From Escherichia virus TH49: a stretch of DNA of 41,043 bases. Every line of letters begins with the position of its first letter. Positions within the stretch are counted from its first letter, which is position 1. The stretch lies in sequence record MT446417.1. The stretch is one strand, 5' to 3'. Of this stretch, positions 1 to 41,043 are shown piece after piece. Made by a program: the position numbers and the translations under genes. Under the pieces are notes generated by a model. That model saw only the letters and a program-made list of their open reading frames with translations. It was not told where the DNA came from and did no database searches.

Positions 1-98
1 AACCATAGGCCACCCCTAACCGAAGGTTAAACCTTAGGTGGTACCGATGGGAAACCTTAGGTGATACTATATGTTGTGGTGAGGGTGACCTGAGGATA
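1..98. repeat. Left direct terminal repeat (DTR), at least 98 bp
   Basis: Positions 1..98 are identical to 40946..41043 by direct reading. T7-like genomes carry direct terminal repeats; the true repeat may be longer if the record was trimmed. Confidence 0.85.
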
Positions 99-210
99 CT
101 ATATGTTGATGTCCCTGTGTCCCTATCTGTTGGTACTCATTAAGTCACACCTTAGGACCTCCTGAGGTAACCACCTGAGGTTAGACCTGAGACCATATAC
201 CTTAGGTTAA
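30..210. repeat. Array of short CCTNAGG repeats (CCTTAGG / CCTGAGG) at the left end
   Basis: At least seven copies (about 32, 55, 89, 150, 161, 174, 200) within 180 bp. Analogous in position to the CCTAAAG repeats next to the T7 terminal repeat. Confidence 0.7.
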
Positions 211-259: not shown

Positions 260-282
260 TATTAGGGCCCACTATAGGGAGA
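260..282 (+). promoter_or_regulatory. Phage RNAP promoter (phiOL-like), tattagggcccactatagggaga, +1 near 277
   Basis: 22 of 23 match to the internal consensus derived from 13 copies in this window. Confidence 0.8.
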
Positions 283-495
283 CACTTAGAGTATTACTTA
301 GAGACCATAACCAATAAGAACACTATCACTATAGGTCTAACTAAAAGTTTAACTTTAAGTGTTGACATTCAGATTCCGTTATGAGACATTAGCAACCGTT
401 GAGAGACACAACGTCACCAACAACCAGACAATACCACGAGTTATCTGGTTAGACTGAGGGTCTCAAGTAGTCATCAACCGGACATACGAAAATGG

Positions 496-2801: not shown

Positions 2802-5522
2802 ATGAACGCATTAAACATTGCACGTAATGACTTCTCAGAGATTGAACTAGCCGCTATTCCGTACAACATCCTCAGCGAGCACTACGGGGACAAGCTGGCA
2901 CGCGAGCAGTTAGCACTGGAGCATGAAGCGTACGAGCTGGGCGAGCAGCGTTTCCTGAAGATGTTAGAACGTCAGGTGAAAGCTGGTGAGTTCGCTGACA
3001 ACGTGGCCGCTAAACCGCTGGTCTTGACGTTGCACCCACAGTTAACCAAGCGTATTGACGACTGGAAGGAGGAGCAATCAAACGCTCGCGGTAAGAAGCC
3101 TCGCGCATACTACCCGATTAAGCACGGCGTTCCCTCAGAGTTGGCCCTTAGTATGGGCGCTGAGGTGCTCAAGGAGAAGCGCGGAGTGTCCAGTGAGGCA
3201 ATCGCACTGCTCACCATTAAGGTAGTCTTAGGGACGCTCACAGACGCCTCAAAGGCCACCATCCAGCAGGTATCCTCTCAGTTAGGCAAGGCGCTTGAGG
3301 ATGAGGCCCGCTTCGGGCGTATCCGTGAGCAGGAGGCCACCTACTTCAAGAAGAATGTAGCGGACCAGCTGGACAAGCGCGTGGGGCACGTGTACAAGAA
3401 GGCTTTCATGCAGGTTGTTGAGGCCGATATGATAGCCAAAGGGATGCTGGGCGGAGACAACTGGGCGAGCTGGAAGACCGACGAGCAGATGCACGTAGGG
3501 ACAAAGCTGCTGGAGCTGCTCATTGAGGGCACCGGTCTGGTGGAAATGACCAAGAACAAGATGGCCGATGGCTCCGACGATGTGACCAGTATGCAGATGG
3601 TCCAGCTGGCTCCGGCCTTCGTGGAACTCCTGAGCAAACGAGCGGGCGCACTCGCGGGTATCAGCCCGATGCACCAGCCGTGCGTAGTCCCTCCGAAACC
3701 TTGGGTCGAAACCGTAGGTGGTGGCTACTGGTCAGTCGGTCGTCGACCGCTGGCACTGGTTCGTACCCACTCCAAGAAGGCGCTTCGCCGCTATACTGAC
3801 GTGCACATGCCTGAGGTATACAAGGCGGTAAACCTCGCGCAAAACACACCGTGGAAGGTGAACAAGAAGGTGCTGGCGGTAGTCAACGAGATTATCAACT
3901 GGAAGCACTGCCCGGTTGCTGACGTCCCAGCGATTGAACGCGAAGAGTTACCACCACGCCCGGACGATATCGACACCAACGAGGTGGCACGTAAGGCGTG
4001 GCGTAAGGAGGCCGCAGCGGTCTACCGTAAGGACAAGGCCCGCCAGTCCCGCCGATTGTCGATGGAGTTCATGGTCGCACAGGCCAACAAGTTCGCTAAC
4101 CACAAGGCCATCTGGTTCCCGTACAACATGGACTGGCGCGGGCGTGTGTACGCTGTGAGCATGTTCAACCCACAGGGTAACGACATGACCAAGGGTATGC
4201 TGACGCTGGCCAAAGGTAAGCCAATCGGTCTCGATGGGTTTTACTGGCTGAAGATTCACGGTGCAAACTGTGCAGGCGTCGACAAGGTTCCCTTCCCTGA
4301 GCGCATCAAGTTCATCGAAGAGAACGAGGGCAACATTCTGGCGAGCGCAGCGGACCCACTGAATAACACTTGGTGGACTCAGCAGGATTCGCCGTTCTGT
4401 TTCTTAGCGTTCTGCTTTGAGTATGCAGGCGTTAAGCACCACGGACTGAATTACAACTGCTCACTACCGCTGGCATTCGATGGGTCATGCTCTGGGATTC
4501 AGCACTTCAGCGCGATGCTCCGCGATTCCATCGGTGGTCGTGCGGTTAACCTGCTGCCTTCTGATACCGTGCAGGATATCTACAAGATTGTGGCCGACAA
4601 GGTTAACGAGGTACTCCACCAGCACGCTATCAACGGGTCTCAGACGGTGGTCGAGCAGATTGCTGACAAAGAGACTGGCGAGTTTCACGAGAAGGTAACT
4701 CTGGGTGAGTCCGTACTGGCTGCGCAGTGGTTGCAGTATGGAGTGACCCGCAAGGTCACTAAGCGTTCGGTAATGACGTTGGCGTACGGTTCCAAAGAGT
4801 TCGGCTTCCGCCAGCAAGTTCTGGAAGATACCATTCAGCCTGCTATTGACAACGGCGAGGGCCTGATGTTTACGCACCCTAACCAAGCGGCTGGCTACAT
4901 GGCTAAGCTGATTTGGGACGCTGTGACCGTGACCGTAGTGGCCGCTGTCGAGGCAATGAACTGGCTGAAGTCTGCCGCTAAGCTGCTGGCTGCTGAAGTC
5001 AAGGACAAGAAGACCAAAGAGGTGCTGCGTAAGCGCTGCGCAATCCACTGGGTAACACCAGACGGCTTCCCGGTGTGGCAAGAGTACCGCAAGCAGAACC
5101 AAGCCCGCCTGAAGCTGGTCTTCCTCGGTCAGGCCAACGTCAAGATGACGTACAACACCGGGAAGGACTCCGAGATTGACGCGCACAAGCAGGAATCTGG
5201 CATCGCTCCCAACTTTGTACACTCACAGGATGGCAGCCACCTGCGCATGACCGTAGTGCACGCCAACGAGGTCTACGGGATTGACTCCTTCGCACTCATT
5301 CACGACTCCTTCGGGACCATTCCGGCTGACGCTGGGAATCTCTTTAAGGCAGTCCGCGAGACGATGGTCAAGACCTATGAGGACAACGATGTAATCGCCG
5401 ACTTCTACGACCAGTTCGCTGACCAGCTGCACGAGTCTCAACTGGACAAGATGCCAGCGGTCCCGGCCAAAGGTGACCTGAATCTGCGCGATATCTTAGA
5501 GTCTGACTTCGCGTTCGCATAA
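2802..5522 (+). CDS. gp1: Single-subunit DNA-dependent RNA polymerase (T7/T3 gp1 family)
   Basis: 906 aa, near-collinear with the recalled T7/T3 RNAP (AGISPMHQPCVVPPKPW, RRPLALVRTHSKK, FPYNMDWRGRVYAV, FDGSCSGIQHFSAML, MTLAYGSKEFGFRQQ, IHDSFGT, C-terminal ESDFAFA). Confidence 0.98.
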   Translation: MNALNIARNDFSEIELAAIPYNILSEHYGDKLAREQLALEHEAYELGEQRFLKMLERQVKAGEFADNVAAKPLVLTLHPQLTKRIDDWKEEQSNARGKKPRAYYPIKHGVPSELALSMGAEVLKEKRGVSSEAIALLTIKVVLGTLTDASKATIQQVSSQLGKALEDEARFGRIREQEATYFKKNVADQLDKRVGHVYKKAFMQVVEADMIAKGMLGGDNWASWKTDEQMHVGTKLLELLIEGTGLVEMTKNKMADGSDDVTSMQMVQLAPAFVELLSKRAGALAGISPMHQPCVVPPKPWVETVGGGYWSVGRRPLALVRTHSKKALRRYTDVHMPEVYKAVNLAQNTPWKVNKKVLAVVNEIINWKHCPVADVPAIEREELPPRPDDIDTNEVARKAWRKEAAAVYRKDKARQSRRLSMEFMVAQANKFANHKAIWFPYNMDWRGRVYAVSMFNPQGNDMTKGMLTLAKGKPIGLDGFYWLKIHGANCAGVDKVPFPERIKFIEENEGNILASAADPLNNTWWTQQDSPFCFLAFCFEYAGVKHHGLNYNCSLPLAFDGSCSGIQHFSAMLRDSIGGRAVNLLPSDTVQDIYKIVADKVNEVLHQHAINGSQTVVEQIADKETGEFHEKVTLGESVLAAQWLQYGVTRKVTKRSVMTLAYGSKEFGFRQQVLEDTIQPAIDNGEGLMFTHPNQAAGYMAKLIWDAVTVTVVAAVEAMNWLKSAAKLLAAEVKDKKTKEVLRKRCAIHWVTPDGFPVWQEYRKQNQARLKLVFLGQANVKMTYNTGKDSEIDAHKQESGIAPNFVHSQDGSHLRMTVVHANEVYGIDSFALIHDSFGTIPADAGNLFKAVRETMVKTYEDNDVIADFYDQFADQLHESQLDKMPAVPAKGDLNLRDILESDFAFA

Positions 5523-5532
5523 GGTCTCAGGC

Positions 5533-5555
5533 AATTAGGGCACACTATAGGGAAC
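5533..5555 (+). promoter_or_regulatory. Phage RNAP promoter (phi1.1A-like), aattagggcacactatagggaac
   Basis: Near-consensus 23-mer directly after the RNAP gene. Followed by a 5' hairpin (gggaacc...gggttcc) and three ACTTAAAG repeats. Confidence 0.8.
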
Positions 5556-5620
5556 CTTCGAATGACCGAGGGTTCCATTACTTAAAGTCTTAACTTAAAG
5601 AATACTTAAAGAGGCATGCC

Positions 5621-6181
5621 ATGACTTACTCAATCGTTGTAACCATCTTGTTAATCATCACCGTAATTCTCCTCATCATGAGCCTAGGTGATGCAGCGGG
5701 CGATAAAGAACGCTTGGAACGTAAGGTACTGGAGGCAAACTCCCAGTTTAACAATGAGTCCTGCAAGGTCCTACGACTGGCGGACAAGGCTGACTCCCTG
5801 AGTAGACAGGTGCGATGGCTTGAGTCCATACTTGAGGAAGAAAAGCAGAATGTGCGCGATGTGAACGCACTCCGGGAGCACCAGCGTGAGCGCATGAAGT
5901 TTCTGCGCAAGTCCCTCAAGGAAGCACAAGACGAGCTGATGATGGTCTCCGACCTGATTCACGTTAAGTTCACCGCTGTGTTGCCGGACGGTACCCACTC
6001 TAAGACGCTCTTTAAGTTAGGGCTTGGGCCGTGTGGTCTCCACGTTAAGTCCCTCCGCTGGACCGAGCTGGATGACCGCTATCTGATAGACCAGCTGTGC
6101 ACCAACGGTGAGCGCAAGCAGTTCGTCTACTACAAGAGTGAAGTGGTAGGGCGTATTGAGTTCCGCCACGGTAAGATTTAA
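5621..6181 (+). CDS. Hypothetical membrane-anchored coiled-coil protein (186 aa)
   Basis: ATG with AAAGAGG upstream. N-terminal hydrophobic helix (IVVTILLIITVILLIM), then a charged heptad-like region, then a Cys-containing C-terminal part. No T7 counterpart recalled at this position. Confidence 0.6.
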   Translation: MTYSIVVTILLIITVILLIMSLGDAAGDKERLERKVLEANSQFNNESCKVLRLADKADSLSRQVRWLESILEEEKQNVRDVNALREHQRERMKFLRKSLKEAQDELMMVSDLIHVKFTAVLPDGTHSKTLFKLGLGPCGLHVKSLRWTELDDRYLIDQLCTNGERKQFVYYKSEVVGRIEFRHGKI

Positions 6182-6202
6182 TTAGGGCACACTATCAGGA
6201 AC
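6180..6202 (+). promoter_or_regulatory. Variant phage promoter-like sequence (phi1.1B-like), aattagggcacactatcaggaac
   Basis: The upstream 16 nt are consensus, but the initiation region is altered (CACTATCAGGAAC instead of CACTATAGGGAGA). It may be weak or inactive. Confidence 0.45.
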
Positions 6203-6205
6203 ATA

Positions 6206-6237
6206 CTCAAGGTCATCACGTTTGGTGGCCTTCATGA
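6206..6237 (+). promoter_or_regulatory. Putative RNase III processing hairpin (R1.1-like)
   Basis: Conserved element CTCAAGGTCAT-loop-GTGGCCTT(C/T)ATGA; the stem AAGGUCA / UGGCCUU has G-U wobbles. It is one of four copies at positions syntenic with T7 RNase III sites. Confidence 0.5.
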
Positions 6238-6270
6238 ATGTCCCTTACTATCACAATCAGGAGCAACACC

Positions 6271-6447
6271 ATGTATCAGAACACAATCAACTTCGAGCGC
6301 AACCGTGAACGTCAGCAGACCGAGGGTTATATCCCTAAGGGCCGCAAGTTGAACAAGACGCAGCGCGGTGGCGGCGTGAAGGGTTCCTTCCGTAACGCAA
6401 AGGGTGACAGCGTTGTTAACCAAGAGAAATACTTCGTAGGAGCGTAA
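6271..6447 (+). CDS. gp1.1: Gene 1.1 protein homolog (58 aa, basic)
   Basis: The motif KGRKLNKTQRG matches the recalled T7 gp1.1 (KGRKLNKTKRD). ATG at 6271 with AGGAG 9 nt upstream. Confidence 0.7.
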   Translation: MYQNTINFERNRERQQTEGYIPKGRKLNKTQRGGGVKGSFRNAKGDSVVNQEKYFVGA

Positions 6448-6450
6448 CAA

Positions 6451-6708
6451 ATGGCTACGGAAAAAAGATGGCTTTTCGATGGGAGCACCTCACAATGGTC
6501 TCGTTTAGGAGCAGCGGAGCGTAGACTGCTGGATACGACAGGACTGCACGTGGTCATGCTTGACGACCCATTCACTAACACCGTGCTGTTCAATGTGTTC
6601 GAGCCACGCGGTTCACTTCTAATAAGCAAGCGGTTCAGCCACTGGTCGATTGACTCAGCGTCAGACTGGCTGGCAAAACTCGCCGCAGACTACTCAAGCT
6701 GGAAGTAA
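6451..6708 (+). CDS. gp1.2: Gene 1.2 homolog (inhibitor of host dGTP triphosphohydrolase), 85 aa
   Basis: Same length as T7 gp1.2 (85 aa), with the C-terminal DWL...WK signature and the syntenic position after gene 1.1. Confidence 0.65.
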   Translation: MATEKRWLFDGSTSQWSRLGAAERRLLDTTGLHVVMLDDPFTNTVLFNVFEPRGSLLISKRFSHWSIDSASDWLAKLAADYSSWK

Positions 6709-6729
6709 TTAGGTCACACTATAGGCAGA
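6707..6729 (+). promoter_or_regulatory. Phage RNAP promoter (phi1.3-like), aattaggtcacactataggcaga
   Basis: 20 of 23 match to consensus, upstream of the ligase gene. Confidence 0.7.
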
Positions 6730-6762
6730 CTCAAGGTCATCGGATTCCGGTGGCCTTTATGA
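6730..6762 (+). promoter_or_regulatory. Putative RNase III processing hairpin (R1.3-like)
   Basis: Second copy of the CTCAAGGTCAT...GGTGGCCTTTATGA element. Confidence 0.5.
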
Positions 6763-6808
6763 TTGCTTATTGCACACTAAATGAACACTACACTTCGGAG
6801 ACATCATC

Positions 6809-12699: not shown

Positions 12700-12797
12700 A
12701 CATGACGAGTGGTGCTCCTGTGAGCACTGCTGTCCAACACTCGAAGCATTCCGCATGAGAATGTATAGAGACTTCAATCGTAAATAGGAGAATCAAA

Positions 12798-13007
12798 ATG
12801 TTTAAACTCATCGAAACTTTAGGCCGTCTGGTCATCGCTCTGTACATCCGTGAAGCCAAGGCACTGGACAAAGCGTCCAAGGTGGAAGCGAAAGCAGCCG
12901 CCAAGCTGGCTAAAGCAGCCGACAAGGCACGTCAGGCATCTCTGGATGCAACCGCAGAGGCAGCTAAAGTTGCCGCTAAAGCCCAGAAACTTAAGGAGTT
13001 CTTCTAA
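12798..13007 (+). CDS. Hypothetical protein (69 aa), gene 4.3 position
   Basis: ATG with TAGGAGA upstream. Ala/Lys-rich, predicted helical product. Confidence 0.55.
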   Translation: MFKLIETLGRLVIALYIREAKALDKASKVEAKAAAKLAKAADKARQASLDATAEAAKVAAKAQKLKEFF

Positions 13008-13318
13008 TGACTACCAAAGCTAAATTCCCCGGCAATACCATTCAGCTGTCCGACACTGTAGACCAGTGGGGTCGCAAGGTTCACATCAACGTCCGCAACG
13101 ACAAGGTGACTCTGGTCTACCGCTGGAAGGCTAAGAGTGATAACCGTGCGCACACTCAGCGTGTTACCCTCGACGATACACAGGCAGCCCGCTTGCTGGC
13201 ATCCGCGGCTGTGGCCGCAACTGTGGCTATCGGTGAGGACAAAGTGCGTGAGGCCATCCTGAGCAAAGAGGTTGGCGAAACGTCCGTTCGTCTGGCTGAA
13301 GCGTCAGAAGTTAAGTGA
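13007..13318 (+). CDS. Hypothetical protein (103 aa), gene 4.5 position
   Basis: ATG overlaps the upstream stop (TAATG); AAGGAG upstream. Confidence 0.55.
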   Translation: MTTKAKFPGNTIQLSDTVDQWGRKVHINVRNDKVTLVYRWKAKSDNRAHTQRVTLDDTQAARLLASAAVAATVAIGEDKVREAILSKEVGETSVRLAEASEVK

Positions 13319-13322
13319 TAAA

Positions 13323-13357
13323 CTCAAGGTCATTACTATATGTAGTGGCCTTTATGA
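13323..13357 (+). promoter_or_regulatory. Putative RNase III processing hairpin (R4.7-like)
   Basis: Third copy of CTCAAGGTCAT...GTGGCCTTTATGA; the loop carries TACTATATGTAGTG. Confidence 0.5.
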
Positions 13358-13390
13358 TTATTACACACAACATATTGAGAGGACATTACC

Positions 13391-17704: not shown

Positions 17705-17796
17705 TTCTCATCGTCCTGACCATGGGCTTAGTCGCTCGTGGTCTCTGGATGTTGGCCTTGATTATCAAGCAGATAGTCGAGCATAAAGCAGAGTGA
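17686..17796 (+). CDS. Putative small membrane peptide (36 aa), gene 6.3 position
   Basis: ATG overlapping the end of gene 6; the product MATGQLILIVLTMGLVARGLWMLALIIKQ... has one transmembrane helix. Found by reading; below the ORF-track cutoff. Confidence 0.3.
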   Translation: MATGQLILIVLTMGLVARGLWMLALIIKQIVEHKAE

Positions 17797-17811
17797 TAAA
17801 CTCATGGGCAC

Positions 17812-17834
17812 AATTAGGACCCACTATAGGGAAG
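17812..17834 (+). promoter_or_regulatory. Phage RNAP promoter (phi6.5-like), aattaggacccactatagggaag
   Basis: Consensus-like 23-mer followed by two TACTTAAAG repeats and the gene 6.5 RBS. Confidence 0.75.
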
Positions 17835-17881
17835 TGCCCATTATGATTATTACTTAAAGATTACTTAAAGAGGAGACTCAA

Positions 17882-25785: not shown

Positions 25786-25808
25786 AATTAGGGCACACTA
25801 TAGGGAGA
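25786..25808 (+). promoter_or_regulatory. Phage RNAP promoter (phi13-like), exact consensus
   Basis: Perfect aattagggcacactatagggaga, upstream of gene 13. Confidence 0.85.
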
Positions 25809-25833
25809 CCACACTAAGAGGGGGACTTAAAGC

Positions 25834-40389: not shown

Positions 40390-40412
40390 AATTAGGGCAC
40401 ACTATAGGGAGA
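40390..40412 (+). promoter_or_regulatory. Phage RNAP promoter (phiOR-like), exact consensus
   Basis: Perfect 23-mer between gene 19 and the right end, as in T7. Confidence 0.85.
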
Positions 40413-40553
40413 GACCCTTGAAGACTTACTATAAGACTACTTAAAGTTTCATTCATATAGTTATGCACTATAAGTCTCCTCACAGGTAGAGGGTAGTGAT
40501 GGTAATATCACCCTCTCACCATAAGACACTAAGAGCCAACATAAGGAGGACCT

Positions 40554-40945: not shown

Positions 40946-41043
40946 AACCATAGGCCACCCCTAACCGAAGGTTAAACCTTAGGTGGTACCGATGGGAAAC
41001 CTTAGGTGATACTATATGTTGTGGTGAGGGTGACCTGAGGATA
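40946..41043. repeat. Right direct terminal repeat (DTR), at least 98 bp
   Basis: Identical to 1..98 by direct reading. Confidence 0.85.

What the first reader, a model, noticed from the sequence alone, without database searches (positions are those of the whole stretch)
5556..5620. ACTTAAAG repeat cluster downstream of the phi1.1A-like promoter: candidate primary replication origin
The 65-bp leader after the promoter contains three copies of ACTTAAAG in an AT-rich context. The same motif recurs after the phi6.5-like promoter (about 17855..17870) and the phiOR-like promoter (about 40436). The T7 primary origin is an AT-rich region just downstream of the phi1.1 promoters, so this is the most likely origin here.
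Basis: partly seen in the sequence, partly recalled or inferred. Interest (0 to 1): 0.35.

Follow-up and report, generated by a model that had tools for sequence, protein, structure and literature searches.

The report
T3/T7-type replication-origin leader after phi1.05
The three ACTTAAAG repeats are real and sit in the promoter-plus-AT-rich leader that matches the annotated primary replication origin of phage T3 and the mapped one of T7, so this is an ordinary, already-understood kind of element that also serves as the ribosome-binding leader of the next gene.

Summary
ACTTAAAG occurs exactly at 5580, 5593 and 5604, 11 times in the window against 0.94 expected. Seven of its 8 plus-strand copies lie within 80 nt downstream of a phage-RNAP start site (p about 6e-11).

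The window is a K11-like Przondovirus, identical over the 1.5 kb compared to Escherichia virus TH50. The promoter is phi1.05, not phi1.1A. Its leader is a 5' stem-loop, then three octamers 13 and 11 bp apart, with the last one running into the Shine-Dalgarno sequence of gene 1.05.

The same layout follows gene 1 in 46 of 50 distinct K11/KP32-type sequences. It recurs with ACTTTAAG in T7-promoter phages, T3 and T7.

Two T3 records annotate this array as the primary origin of DNA replication. T7's mapped origin is a degenerate version of it.

The four least stable DNA duplex segments of the window are the leaders of phi6.5, phiOR, phi1.05 and phiOL. In T7 the same test picks out the primary-origin promoter and the known secondary ones.

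The origin reading is therefore well supported by homology but untested. The octamer is not origin-specific: single copies abut ribosome-binding sites elsewhere. Four relatives lack the module. Low novelty.

The parts
5533..5555 (+). phi1.05 promoter for the phage RNA polymerase (AATTAGGGCACACTATAGGGAAC; transcription start G at 5550)
   Evidence: Its 18-nt core is an exact match to the pattern shared by 12 sites in the window, against 0.05 expected. It aligns to the promoter annotated phi1.05 in K11 NC_011043.1.
5551..5576 (+). 5'-terminal stem-loop of the transcript (arms 5551-5560 and 5567-5576, 6-nt loop)
   Evidence: Inverted repeat with 10-nt arms, 90% complementary. RNA fold -17.1 kcal/mol, z = -4.6. 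Relatives with unrelated sequences at this position still fold into a 5' hairpin. T3 annotates the equivalent as inverted repeat A/A'.
5577..5612 (+). AT-rich octamer array with ACTTAAAG at 5580-5587, 5593-5600 and 5604-5611; candidate RNA-to-DNA switch region of the origin and 5' UTR of gene 1.05
   Evidence: 80.6% A+T, the AT-richest 36-mer in the window. Third least stable 30- and 40-bp duplex in the window. Corresponds to the T3 rep_origin.
5608..5614 (+). Shine-Dalgarno region AAAGAGG of gene 1.05, overlapping the third octamer, 6 nt before the ATG
   Evidence: Read directly from the sequence. The relative Poteet annotates a ribosome-binding site at the equivalent place. In 54 of 78 distinct related leaders the last octamer is followed directly by AGG.
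5621..6181 (+). Gene 1.05 (186 aa, hydrophobic N-terminus, function unknown), the first gene translated from the leader
   Evidence: ORF listing. K11 annotates it as 'gp1.05 fusion protein'. It matches PHROG 6440, function unknown. It is variable or absent in relatives.
17812..17870 (+). phi6.5 promoter and leader with two ACTTAAAG copies (17852, 17863); counterpart of a T7 secondary origin
   Evidence: Least stable 30-bp duplex in the window. The first copy is exact in all 58 relatives; the second is exact or a one- or two-base variant. The module is present in the four genomes that lack the phi1.05 module.
40390..40446 (+). phiOR promoter and leader with ACTTACTATAAG and then ACTTAAAG (40439); no start codon directly after
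   Evidence: Least stable 40-bp duplex in the window.
260..359 (+). phiOL promoter and leader with variant octamers ACTTAGAG (284, 296), ACTAAAAG (340) and ACTTTAAG (352); no gene directly downstream
   Evidence: Fourth least stable 30- and 40-bp duplex in the window.
25786..25832 (+). phi13 promoter and leader with one ACTTAAAG (25825) lying between the Shine-Dalgarno sequence and the ATG

Best explanation
Region 5533-5620 is the phi1.05 promoter-leader module of a K11-like T7-group phage, and it probably has two jobs.

(1) As DNA, it is the counterpart of the T3/T7 primary replication origin. The phage RNA polymerase starts at 5550 and transcribes a short GC-rich hairpin. It then enters a 36-bp array of three ACTTAAAG units that is 81% A+T and among the least stable duplex in the genome. 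By analogy with T7, the nascent RNA's 3' end is handed there to the phage DNA polymerase as the primer for rightward synthesis, and the helicase-primase loads on the displaced strand.

(2) As RNA, the same transcript is the mRNA of gene 1.05. The 5' hairpin protects it, the AU-rich repeats form an unstructured leader, and the last repeat supplies the 5' half of the Shine-Dalgarno sequence.

Shown here: the anatomy, the non-random distribution, the conservation, and the correspondence to annotated or mapped origins. Inferred: that replication starts here, and that this site rather than the phi6.5, phiOR or phiOL leader is the primary one.
For: - The promoter, hairpin, array and ribosome-binding site are all present.
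- The motif is strongly enriched and tied to promoters.
- The layout follows gene 1 in 46 of 50 distinct K11/KP32-type sequences. L034 and L050 have a different hairpin and different spacers but keep all three octamers, so the octamer itself is under selection, not just A+T content.
- The same layout with 2-4 exact copies of ACTTTAAG (five units counting a one-base variant in L081) occurs in T7-promoter phages, and with ACTTAAAG in two further promoter types. Arrays also follow gene 1 in Dickeya DchS19 and Morganella MP2.
- T3 records annotate rep_origin immediately after the phi1.05 hairpin, over ACTTTAAG-ac-ACTTTAGG-t-ACTAAGAG.
- The T7 AT-rich region after phi1.1B carries ACTTTAAG twice plus degenerate CTTAAG units.
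- Nearest-neighbour duplex stability ranks the phi6.5, phiOR, phi1.05 and phiOL leaders as the four least stable 30- and 40-bp segments of the window, more than 4 SD from the mean. The same test in T7 returns phiOL, phi1.1B, phi6.5 and phiOR, plus phi10. PMC8373140 names phi1.1A/B as the T7 primary origins and phiOR and phi6.5 as secondary ones.
- Octamer variants follow phiOL, where no gene is near, in the window, T7 and T3.
- The leader persists when gene 1.05 is replaced or deleted: L013, L030 and L045 fuse it to gene 1.1.
Against: - There is no experimental mapping in any K11-like phage, and I could not check whether the T3 annotation rests on experiment or on analogy.
- The array is 36 bp with one promoter, whereas T7 has two promoters and a longer AT-rich region (61 bp, from memory).
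- No canonical (G/T)(G/T)GTC primase site lies in the array. T3 and T7 each carry one after the first octamer, although the T7 site is reported as not used for priming (PMC12839067).
- Four relatives lack the module entirely, so it is dispensable or redundant.
- Three other leaders are equally or more unstable, so 'primary' rests only on homology.
- Single octamers sit at ordinary ribosome-binding sites.
Confidence: 0.55

Rival explanations
1. The array is only an mRNA element: a 5' UTR module made of a stabilising hairpin, an AU-rich translational enhancer and an extended Shine-Dalgarno sequence, for the first gene behind a phage promoter. It would have no role in replication. It would resemble the T7 gene 10 leader, whose UUAACUUUA 'epsilon' element was reported to enhance translation (Olins and Rangwala 1989, from memory).
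For: - All leader copies are on the sense strand.
- The last copy is followed by AGG in 54 of 78 distinct leaders. The ATG lies 9 nt after the last copy in 46 of them and 1 nt after in 13.
- Single copies abut the Shine-Dalgarno sequence at window phi9, phi13 and phi17, and at T7 phi9, phi10 and phi17.
- The close variant ACTTAAGG(AG) forms the ribosome-binding site of promoter-less genes at 1696, 12989 and 23369.
- The 5' hairpin is kept as a structure through unrelated sequences, which is an RNA-level feature.
- The leader is moved as a unit onto gene 1.1 in L013, L030 and L045.
Against: - Octamer variants follow phiOL, and ACTTAAAG follows phiOR, where no start codon is adjacent, in the window, T3 and T7.
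- Upstream copies lie 20-40 nt from the ATG and are multiplied up to five-fold before small, variable, dispensable genes.
- Multi-copy arrays coincide with the T7 and T3 origin promoters rather than with the most highly expressed genes. The window's phi10 leader has none.
- The T3 annotators placed an origin on the same bases.
- The two readings are not exclusive.
Confidence: 0.25
2. The octamers are phased binding sites for a sequence-specific protein of the phage or host, or a designed DNA bend. ACTT-W-AAGT is a 9-bp palindrome and the units recur about every helical turn. The 'AT-rich region' of T7-group origins would then be a specific recognition array rather than generic easily melted DNA.
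For: - Start-to-start spacing is 10-14 bp, with modes at 11 and 13.
- The octamer is conserved while the spacers change (L034 and L050).
- The K11-type and T7-type variants are reverse complements of each other across the core (seen from the sequences).
- Arrays are conserved across several genera.
Against: - A symmetric dimer site should tolerate both orientations, yet arrays are almost always homogeneous within a genus, and only 2 of 78 distinct leaders contain both variants.
- Only the first copy here has the full 9-bp palindrome.
- No candidate binding protein is known.
- In T7 itself the array is degenerate.
Confidence: 0.12
3. The repeats have no function of their own. They would be left over from duplication or slippage, or from copying of promoter-leader cassettes between sites. 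Alternatively they would form a host sigma-70 promoter resembling T7 A1, whose -35 region reads TTGACTTAAAGTC.
For: - The phi1.05 and phi6.5 leaders resemble each other.
- T7 A1 overlaps an ACTTAAAG.
- Copy number varies from 2 to 5 among genera.
Against: - The octamers are near-invariant in 46 of 50 K11/KP32-type sequences while the adjacent gene 1.05 diverges within about 60 nt.
- They are retained across different promoters, hairpins and spacers.
- The sigma-70 scan finds no promoter in 5556-5620. By eye the best hexamers are ATTACT and AATACT with an 18-nt spacer, which falls below the scan's threshold.
Confidence: 0.05

Closest known systems
Bacteriophage T3 primary origin of DNA replication (rep_origin 5682-5758 in NC_003298.1; 145-221 in X05031.1)
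   Same: Both lie directly after gene 1. Both have a single phi1.05 promoter, a 5' hairpin, and then a three-unit octamer array running into the ribosome-binding site and AT-rich start of gene 1.05. In both, phi1.1 with the R1.1 RNase III hairpin follows further downstream.
   Different: The T3 units are ACTTTAAG, ACTTTAGG and ACTAAGAG: the central base is flipped and the units are degenerate. The window has three perfect ACTTAAAG. T3 has an annotated primase site (GACAC, which is GTGTC on the other strand) between units 1 and 2, whereas the window has TCTTA there. Gene 1.05 is 90 aa in T3 and 186 aa here.
Bacteriophage T7 primary origin (phi1.1A and phi1.1B plus an AT-rich region, about nt 5848-6006)
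   Same: Both consist of a phage RNAP promoter followed by one of the least stable duplex segments of the genome, directly after gene 1 at about 14-15% of the genome. Both contain the octamer family (ACTTTAAG twice plus CTTAAG-type units). In both, the last copy adjoins the start codon of the next gene. The function was established experimentally in T7 (literature cited in PMC8373140 and PMC12839067).
   Different: T7 has two tandem promoters with the R1.1 site between them, no gene 1.05, a longer and more degenerate AT-rich stretch, only a weak 5' hairpin (-3.6 kcal/mol), and a GGGTC site.
T7 secondary origins at phi6.5 and phiOR, and the phiOL leader
   Same: They share the promoter-plus-unstable-AT-rich-leader design. 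The window has counterparts carrying the same octamer at 17852, 17863 and 40439, with variants after phiOL (PMC8373140).
   Different: In T7 these are used when the primary origin is deleted. Which site dominates in this phage is unknown.
T7 gene 10 leader and its 'epsilon' translational enhancer (UUAACUUUA)
   Same: The second unit with its spacer reads TTAACTTAAAG, against T7's TTAACTTTAAG. Both lie in a 5' UTR just upstream of the Shine-Dalgarno sequence.
   Different: One base differs within the 9-mer. Here there are three copies, two of them too far upstream to be part of the ribosome-binding site. No enhancer activity has been tested for this variant.

Membership tests
T7-group transcription-primed replication origin (promoter plus AT-rich region) | A rightward promoter for the phage's own RNA polymerase | tested here: met
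   The 18-nt core is an exact match to the pattern shared by 12 sites in the window. It aligns to K11's annotated phi1.05.
T7-group transcription-primed replication origin (promoter plus AT-rich region) | An AT-rich, easily melted segment immediately downstream of the promoter | tested here: met
   5577-5612 is 80.6% A+T, the AT-richest 36-mer in the window. It is the third least stable 30- and 40-bp duplex, more than 4 SD from the mean. The T7 control returns phi1.1B, phi6.5, phiOR and phiOL. The segment is shorter than T7's.
T7-group transcription-primed replication origin (promoter plus AT-rich region) | A position directly downstream of gene 1, at about 15% of the genome | tested here: met
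   The RNAP gene ends at 5522 and the start site is at 5550, which is 13.5% of the 41,043-nt window.
T7-group transcription-primed replication origin (promoter plus AT-rich region) | Sequence correspondence with an origin that is mapped or annotated in a relative | tested here: met
   The architecture and octamer family are shared with the T3 rep_origin and the T7 phi1.1B AT-rich region.
T7-group transcription-primed replication origin (promoter plus AT-rich region) | A primase recognition site (G/T)(G/T)GTC inside the AT-rich region, as in T7 and T3 | tested here: not met
   There is none in 5556-5620 on either strand. The nearest are at 5449 (minus strand) and 5787 (minus strand). Only AAGTC (plus strand) and CGGTC (minus strand, in the hairpin loop) are present. 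The T7 site is reported as not used for priming (PMC12839067), so this is probably not a defining feature.
T7-group transcription-primed replication origin (promoter plus AT-rich region) | Tandem promoters, as in T7 phi1.1A and phi1.1B | tested here: not met
   There is a single promoter; the next one lies 647 nt downstream, after gene 1.05. T3's annotated origin also has a single promoter.
T7-group transcription-primed replication origin (promoter plus AT-rich region) | DNA synthesis actually initiates here | not testable with these tools
   This needs replication-intermediate mapping or a plasmid origin assay.
Translation-initiation leader or epsilon-like enhancer | It lies in the 5' UTR on the sense strand and is contiguous with the Shine-Dalgarno sequence and start codon | tested here: met
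   The third copy overlaps AAAGAGG, 6 nt before the ATG. The same holds in 54 of 78 distinct related leaders.
Translation-initiation leader or epsilon-like enhancer | It occurs only where a start codon follows | tested here: not met
   The phiOL and phiOR leaders carry octamers with no adjacent start codon in the window, T3 and T7.
Translation-initiation leader or epsilon-like enhancer | It raises translation of the downstream gene | not testable with these tools
   This needs reporter assays.
RNase III processing site (T7 R1.1 type) | A long irregular hairpin with an internal loop, homologous to R1.1 or R1.3 | tested here: not met
   The hairpin here is a plain 10-bp stem. R1.1- and R1.3-type sequences (ACTCAAGGTCA...GGTGGCCTT) sit after the promoters at 6183 and 6710 instead.
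Host sigma-70 promoter (T7 A1-like) | -35 and -10 hexamers with 16-18 nt spacing, at least 9 of 12 matches | tested here: not met
   The scan reports no site in 5556-5620.

The most novel reading that the evidence does not exclude
The 'AT-rich region' of T7-group replication origins may not be generic easily melted DNA. It may instead be an array of a specific, strand-oriented octamer, ACTT(A/T)AAG, repeated about once per helical turn. The array is conserved across at least six genera, with the central base flipped between lineages, and it may be read by a defined partner. That partner could be the RNA polymerase to DNA polymerase primer hand-off, the helicase-primase, or an unidentified protein. 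The three perfect copies here would then be the cleanest natural example for dissecting it.
Probability: 0.2. Interest if true: 0.5.

Novelty: new member of a known kind. Interest (0 to 1): 0.22.

Why it matters
For this phage the result gives a reasoned origin annotation: phi1.05 leader as primary candidate, and the phi6.5, phiOR and phiOL leaders as back-ups. This is useful for engineering K11-type phages and for orthogonal replication or expression systems based on K11 RNA polymerase.

More generally, the classical T7 'AT-rich' origin segment turns out to be a degenerate form of an octamer array that is much cleaner in K11-like and other T7-group phages. A scramble-at-constant-A+T experiment could therefore separate sequence-specific from purely thermodynamic origin determinants. 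It does not change the accepted picture of T7-group replication.

Tried and rejected
- Primase-site strand bias. I looked for a switch in the strand distribution of (G/T)(G/T)GTC sites at the putative origin. There is none in the window, and none in T7 or T3 either (Fisher p 0.3-1.0). The test is uninformative, not negative.
- Sigma-70 promoter. I considered this because T7 A1 reads TTGACTTAAAGTC. The scan finds no site in the array.
- Rfam. No family matches anywhere in the window.
- RNase III site. Rejected: the R1.1- and R1.3-type hairpins are at the next two promoters.
- T7 terminal CCTAAAG arrays. These are a different heptamer. The window's ends carry ACCTTAGG/ACCTGAGG units instead, so I did not merge them with the octamer.
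- Original papers. Saito 1980, Romano 1981, Lee and Richardson 2011 and the phiYeO3-12 genome paper are not held. Full-text searches for the motif strings returned only vector and T7 A1 sequences. Statements about RNA-to-DNA transition points in the T7 AT-rich region, its 61-bp length, and the epsilon enhancer therefore rest on my memory of that literature.
- 16S rRNA complementarity of the K11-type motif. Not tested, because no host rRNA sequence was in hand.
- DNA curvature modelling. Not run, because I would have had to recall the wedge parameters from memory.

Full report
**Observation.** Between the end of the RNA polymerase gene (stop at 5522) and the ATG at 5621, the plus strand reads AATTAGGGCACACTATAGGGAACCTTCGAATGACCGAGGGTTCC-ATT-ACTTAAAG-TCTTA-ACTTAAAG-AAT-ACTTAAAG-AGGCATGCC-ATG. 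ACTTAAAG is exact at 5580, 5593 and 5604. The window holds 11 exact copies on both strands against 0.94 expected, and none of 100 shuffles reached 11. The repeat finder reports a 3-copy family with spacings of 13 and 11, plus a 10-nt inverted repeat at 5551-5560 and 5567-5576. There is also a copy after the promoter at 25789, and one-mismatch variants follow phiOL, phi9 and phi17. Seven of the 8 plus-strand copies lie within 80 nt downstream of one of 13 phage-promoter start sites, which together make up 2.6% of the genome (p = 5.7e-11).

**What the window is.** Bases 5000-6500 are 100% identical to Escherichia virus TH50 and about 92% identical to Klebsiella phage K11; 376 of the 444 matching records are Klebsiella phages. 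In the K11 record the promoter at window 5533-5555 is phi1.05 and the ORF at 5621-6181 is gene 1.05. Promoters phi1.1 and phi1.3 follow at 6183 and 6710. The leader homologous to T7 phi1.1A, which carries the R1.1 RNase III hairpin ACTCAAGGTCA...GGTGGCCTT, belongs to the promoter at 6183.

**Anatomy.** The transcript starts at G5550 and forms a stable 5' stem-loop (-17.1 kcal/mol, z = -4.6). It then runs through 36 nt of 80.6% A+T, the AT-richest 36-mer in the genome, made of the three octamers. The third octamer overlaps the Shine-Dalgarno sequence AAAGAGG, 6 nt before the ATG.

**Relatives.**
- I took the sequence downstream of the RNAP gene from 80 IMG/VR contigs, which gave 78 distinct sequences in the survey.
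- Of 50 distinct K11/KP32-type sequences, 44 have three exact copies and 2 have two exact copies plus a one-base variant. Four lack the whole module: in those, gene 1 runs straight into phi1.1, R1.1 and gene 1.1.
- L034 and L050 have a different hairpin and different spacers (ATAT-ACTTAAAG-ACA-ACTTAAAG-TAA-ACTTAAAG-AGG) yet keep all three octamers. Selection therefore acts on the octamer and not only on base composition.
- In L013, L030 and L045 gene 1.05 is gone and the intact leader is fused at the ATG to gene 1.1.
- Phages with T7-type promoters show the same layout, a promoter, a 5' hairpin of unrelated sequence and then an array, with 2-4 exact copies of ACTTTAAG. L081 has five units if a one-base variant is counted. 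Two further promoter types (L061, L066) use ACTTAAAG.
- Spacing is 10-14 bp, with modes at 11 and 13. The last copy is followed by AGG in 54 of 78 sequences, and only two leaders contain both variants.
- All ten hairpins tested fold, despite unrelated sequences.
- Further out, Dickeya phage DchS19 and Morganella phage MP2 have arrays after gene 1. Two Kayfunavirus genomes, a Ghunavirus and Vibrio phage VP4 do not.

**Comparison with known origins.**
- The T3 RefSeq record annotates 'rep_origin 5682-5758, primary origin of DNA replication' directly after promoter phi1.05.
- The older record X05031.1, titled 'T3 gene region 1-2.5 with primary origin of replication', annotates the promoter, inverted repeat A/A', rep_origin 145-221, a 'primase binding site' at 151-155, a ribosome-binding site and gp1.05.
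- The T3 sequence there is GGGAGACTACTTAAGGTCTCCC-ACTTTAAG-ac-ACTTTAGG-t-ACTAAGAG-attaaattt-ATG. This is the same architecture as in the window, with the T-type octamer.
- In T7 the region after phi1.1B contains ACTTTAAG twice, the second copy abutting the gene 1.1 ATG, with CTTAAG-type degenerate units between them.
- PMC8373140 states that T7 replication starts at phi1.1A/phi1.1B and can start at secondary origins such as phiOR and phi6.5 when these are deleted.
- PMC12839067 notes the AT-rich cluster in the T7 origin and a GGGTC site within it that is not used for priming.
- An alignment of the window, T3, T7 and five other leaders shows the shared promoter core and octamer columns.

**A calibrated sequence test.**
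- Nearest-neighbour duplex free energy in sliding windows ranks the leaders of phi6.5, phiOR, phi1.05 and phiOL as the four least stable 30- and 40-bp segments of the whole window, more than 4 SD from the mean.
- In T7 the same calculation returns phiOL, phi1.1B, phi6.5 and phiOR, with phi10 also high. In T3 it returns phi1.05 and phiOL first.
- The measure thus recovers the T7 primary-origin promoter and the known secondary ones, and the window shows the same four-site pattern.
- It does not single out phi1.05 as primary. That rests on homology.
- In 58 relatives the phi6.5 leader keeps the first copy exact and the second exact or as a one- or two-base variant. This includes the four genomes that lack the phi1.05 module, which fits redundancy among such sites.

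**The main rival.**
- The octamer is not an origin-specific mark. Single copies or near variants abut the Shine-Dalgarno sequence at window phi9, phi13 and phi17 and at T7 phi9, phi10 and phi17.
- ACTTAAGG(AG) forms the ribosome-binding site of promoter-less genes at 1696, 12989 and 23369.
- The conserved 5' hairpin and the fixed distance to the ATG are mRNA features.
- Against a purely translational role, variants follow phiOL and copies follow phiOR where no start codon is adjacent, in all three genomes. Multi-copy arrays track the origin-type promoters, not the most expressed genes.
- I therefore read the module as dual-use, as the T3 annotators did when they placed a ribosome-binding site inside their rep_origin.

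**Other readings.** A sigma-70 promoter is not called here. It is not an RNase III site. Rfam finds nothing. A phased protein-binding or bending array is not excluded: the spacing is near one helical turn, and the two octamer variants are reverse complements across the core. The strict orientation within arrays argues against a symmetric site.

**Limits.** No canonical primase site lies in the array. The primase strand-bias test is uninformative even in T7. The original T7 and T3 origin papers could not be read. No tool here can show where replication starts.

**Verdict.** This is a real, highly non-random element and the K11-lineage version of the T3/T7 primary-origin leader. It is a new member of a known kind. 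The origin reading is well supported by homology and unproven by experiment. Interest is low, apart from the possibility that the octamer array is a specific origin determinant.

Noticed in passing
window 6180-6245 and 6707-6775: The leaders of the next two promoters (phi1.1, phi1.3) carry R1.1- and R1.3-type RNase III hairpins (ACTCAAGGTCATC...GGTGGCCTT), close to the T7 phi1.1A and phi1.3 leaders. Relative to T7, the AT-rich array module and the R1.1 module are therefore in swapped order, with gene 1.05 between them.
   Followed up: partly
L008, L024, L049, L051 (about 2100-2260); L013, L030, L045: These are natural deletion variants. Four K11/KP32-type genomes lack the phi1.05 leader plus gene 1.05. 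Three others lack gene 1.05, phi1.1 and R1.1, with the array leader fused exactly at the ATG to gene 1.1, apparently through CACCATG microhomology.
   Followed up: partly
window 5621-6181: Gene 1.05 (186 aa, hydrophobic N-terminus) matches only PHROGs of unknown function. Its first 20 or so codons are conserved among relatives, after which it diverges sharply, so the gene body seems to be exchanged while the leader stays.
   Followed up: partly
window 1-98 and 40946-41043: The first 98 nt of the window recur at its very end, which is a fragment of the direct terminal repeat. Both ends carry arrays of ACCTTAGG/ACCTGAGG units, the counterpart of T7's CCTAAAG arrays.
   Followed up: partly
window 121-131: CCCTATCTGTT lies in the left terminal region and matches the T7 concatemer-junction (class II) pause/termination signal ATCTGTT. 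The identification is from memory.
   Followed up: no
window 1696, 12989, 23369, 18109: Promoter-less internal genes use ACTTAAGGAG(G) or ACTCAAAGAAGGAG as their ribosome-binding site, so an ACT prefix before the Shine-Dalgarno sequence recurs beyond the promoter leaders.
   Followed up: partly
L087 (Morganella phage MP2), about 1100-1350: The roughly 300-nt non-coding stretch after gene 1 holds five exact ACTTAAAG plus ACCTAAAG, CACTTTAGG and CACTTAGAG variants, spread over two promoter-like sequences. It is the largest array seen.
   Followed up: no
window 17795-17850: The phi6.5 promoter is embedded between inverted repeats (CATGGGCAC ... GTGCCCATTATG), as in T3, where an RNase III site R6.5 is annotated across phi6.5.
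   Followed up: no
whole window: The only 100% match is named Escherichia virus TH50 with host E. coli, whereas the clade is overwhelmingly made up of Klebsiella phages.
   Followed up: no
window 12760-12800 and 13304-13390: These are the next least stable, AT-rich segments after the four promoter leaders. No phage promoter was found next to them with up to 4 mismatches to the promoter pattern.
   Followed up: no
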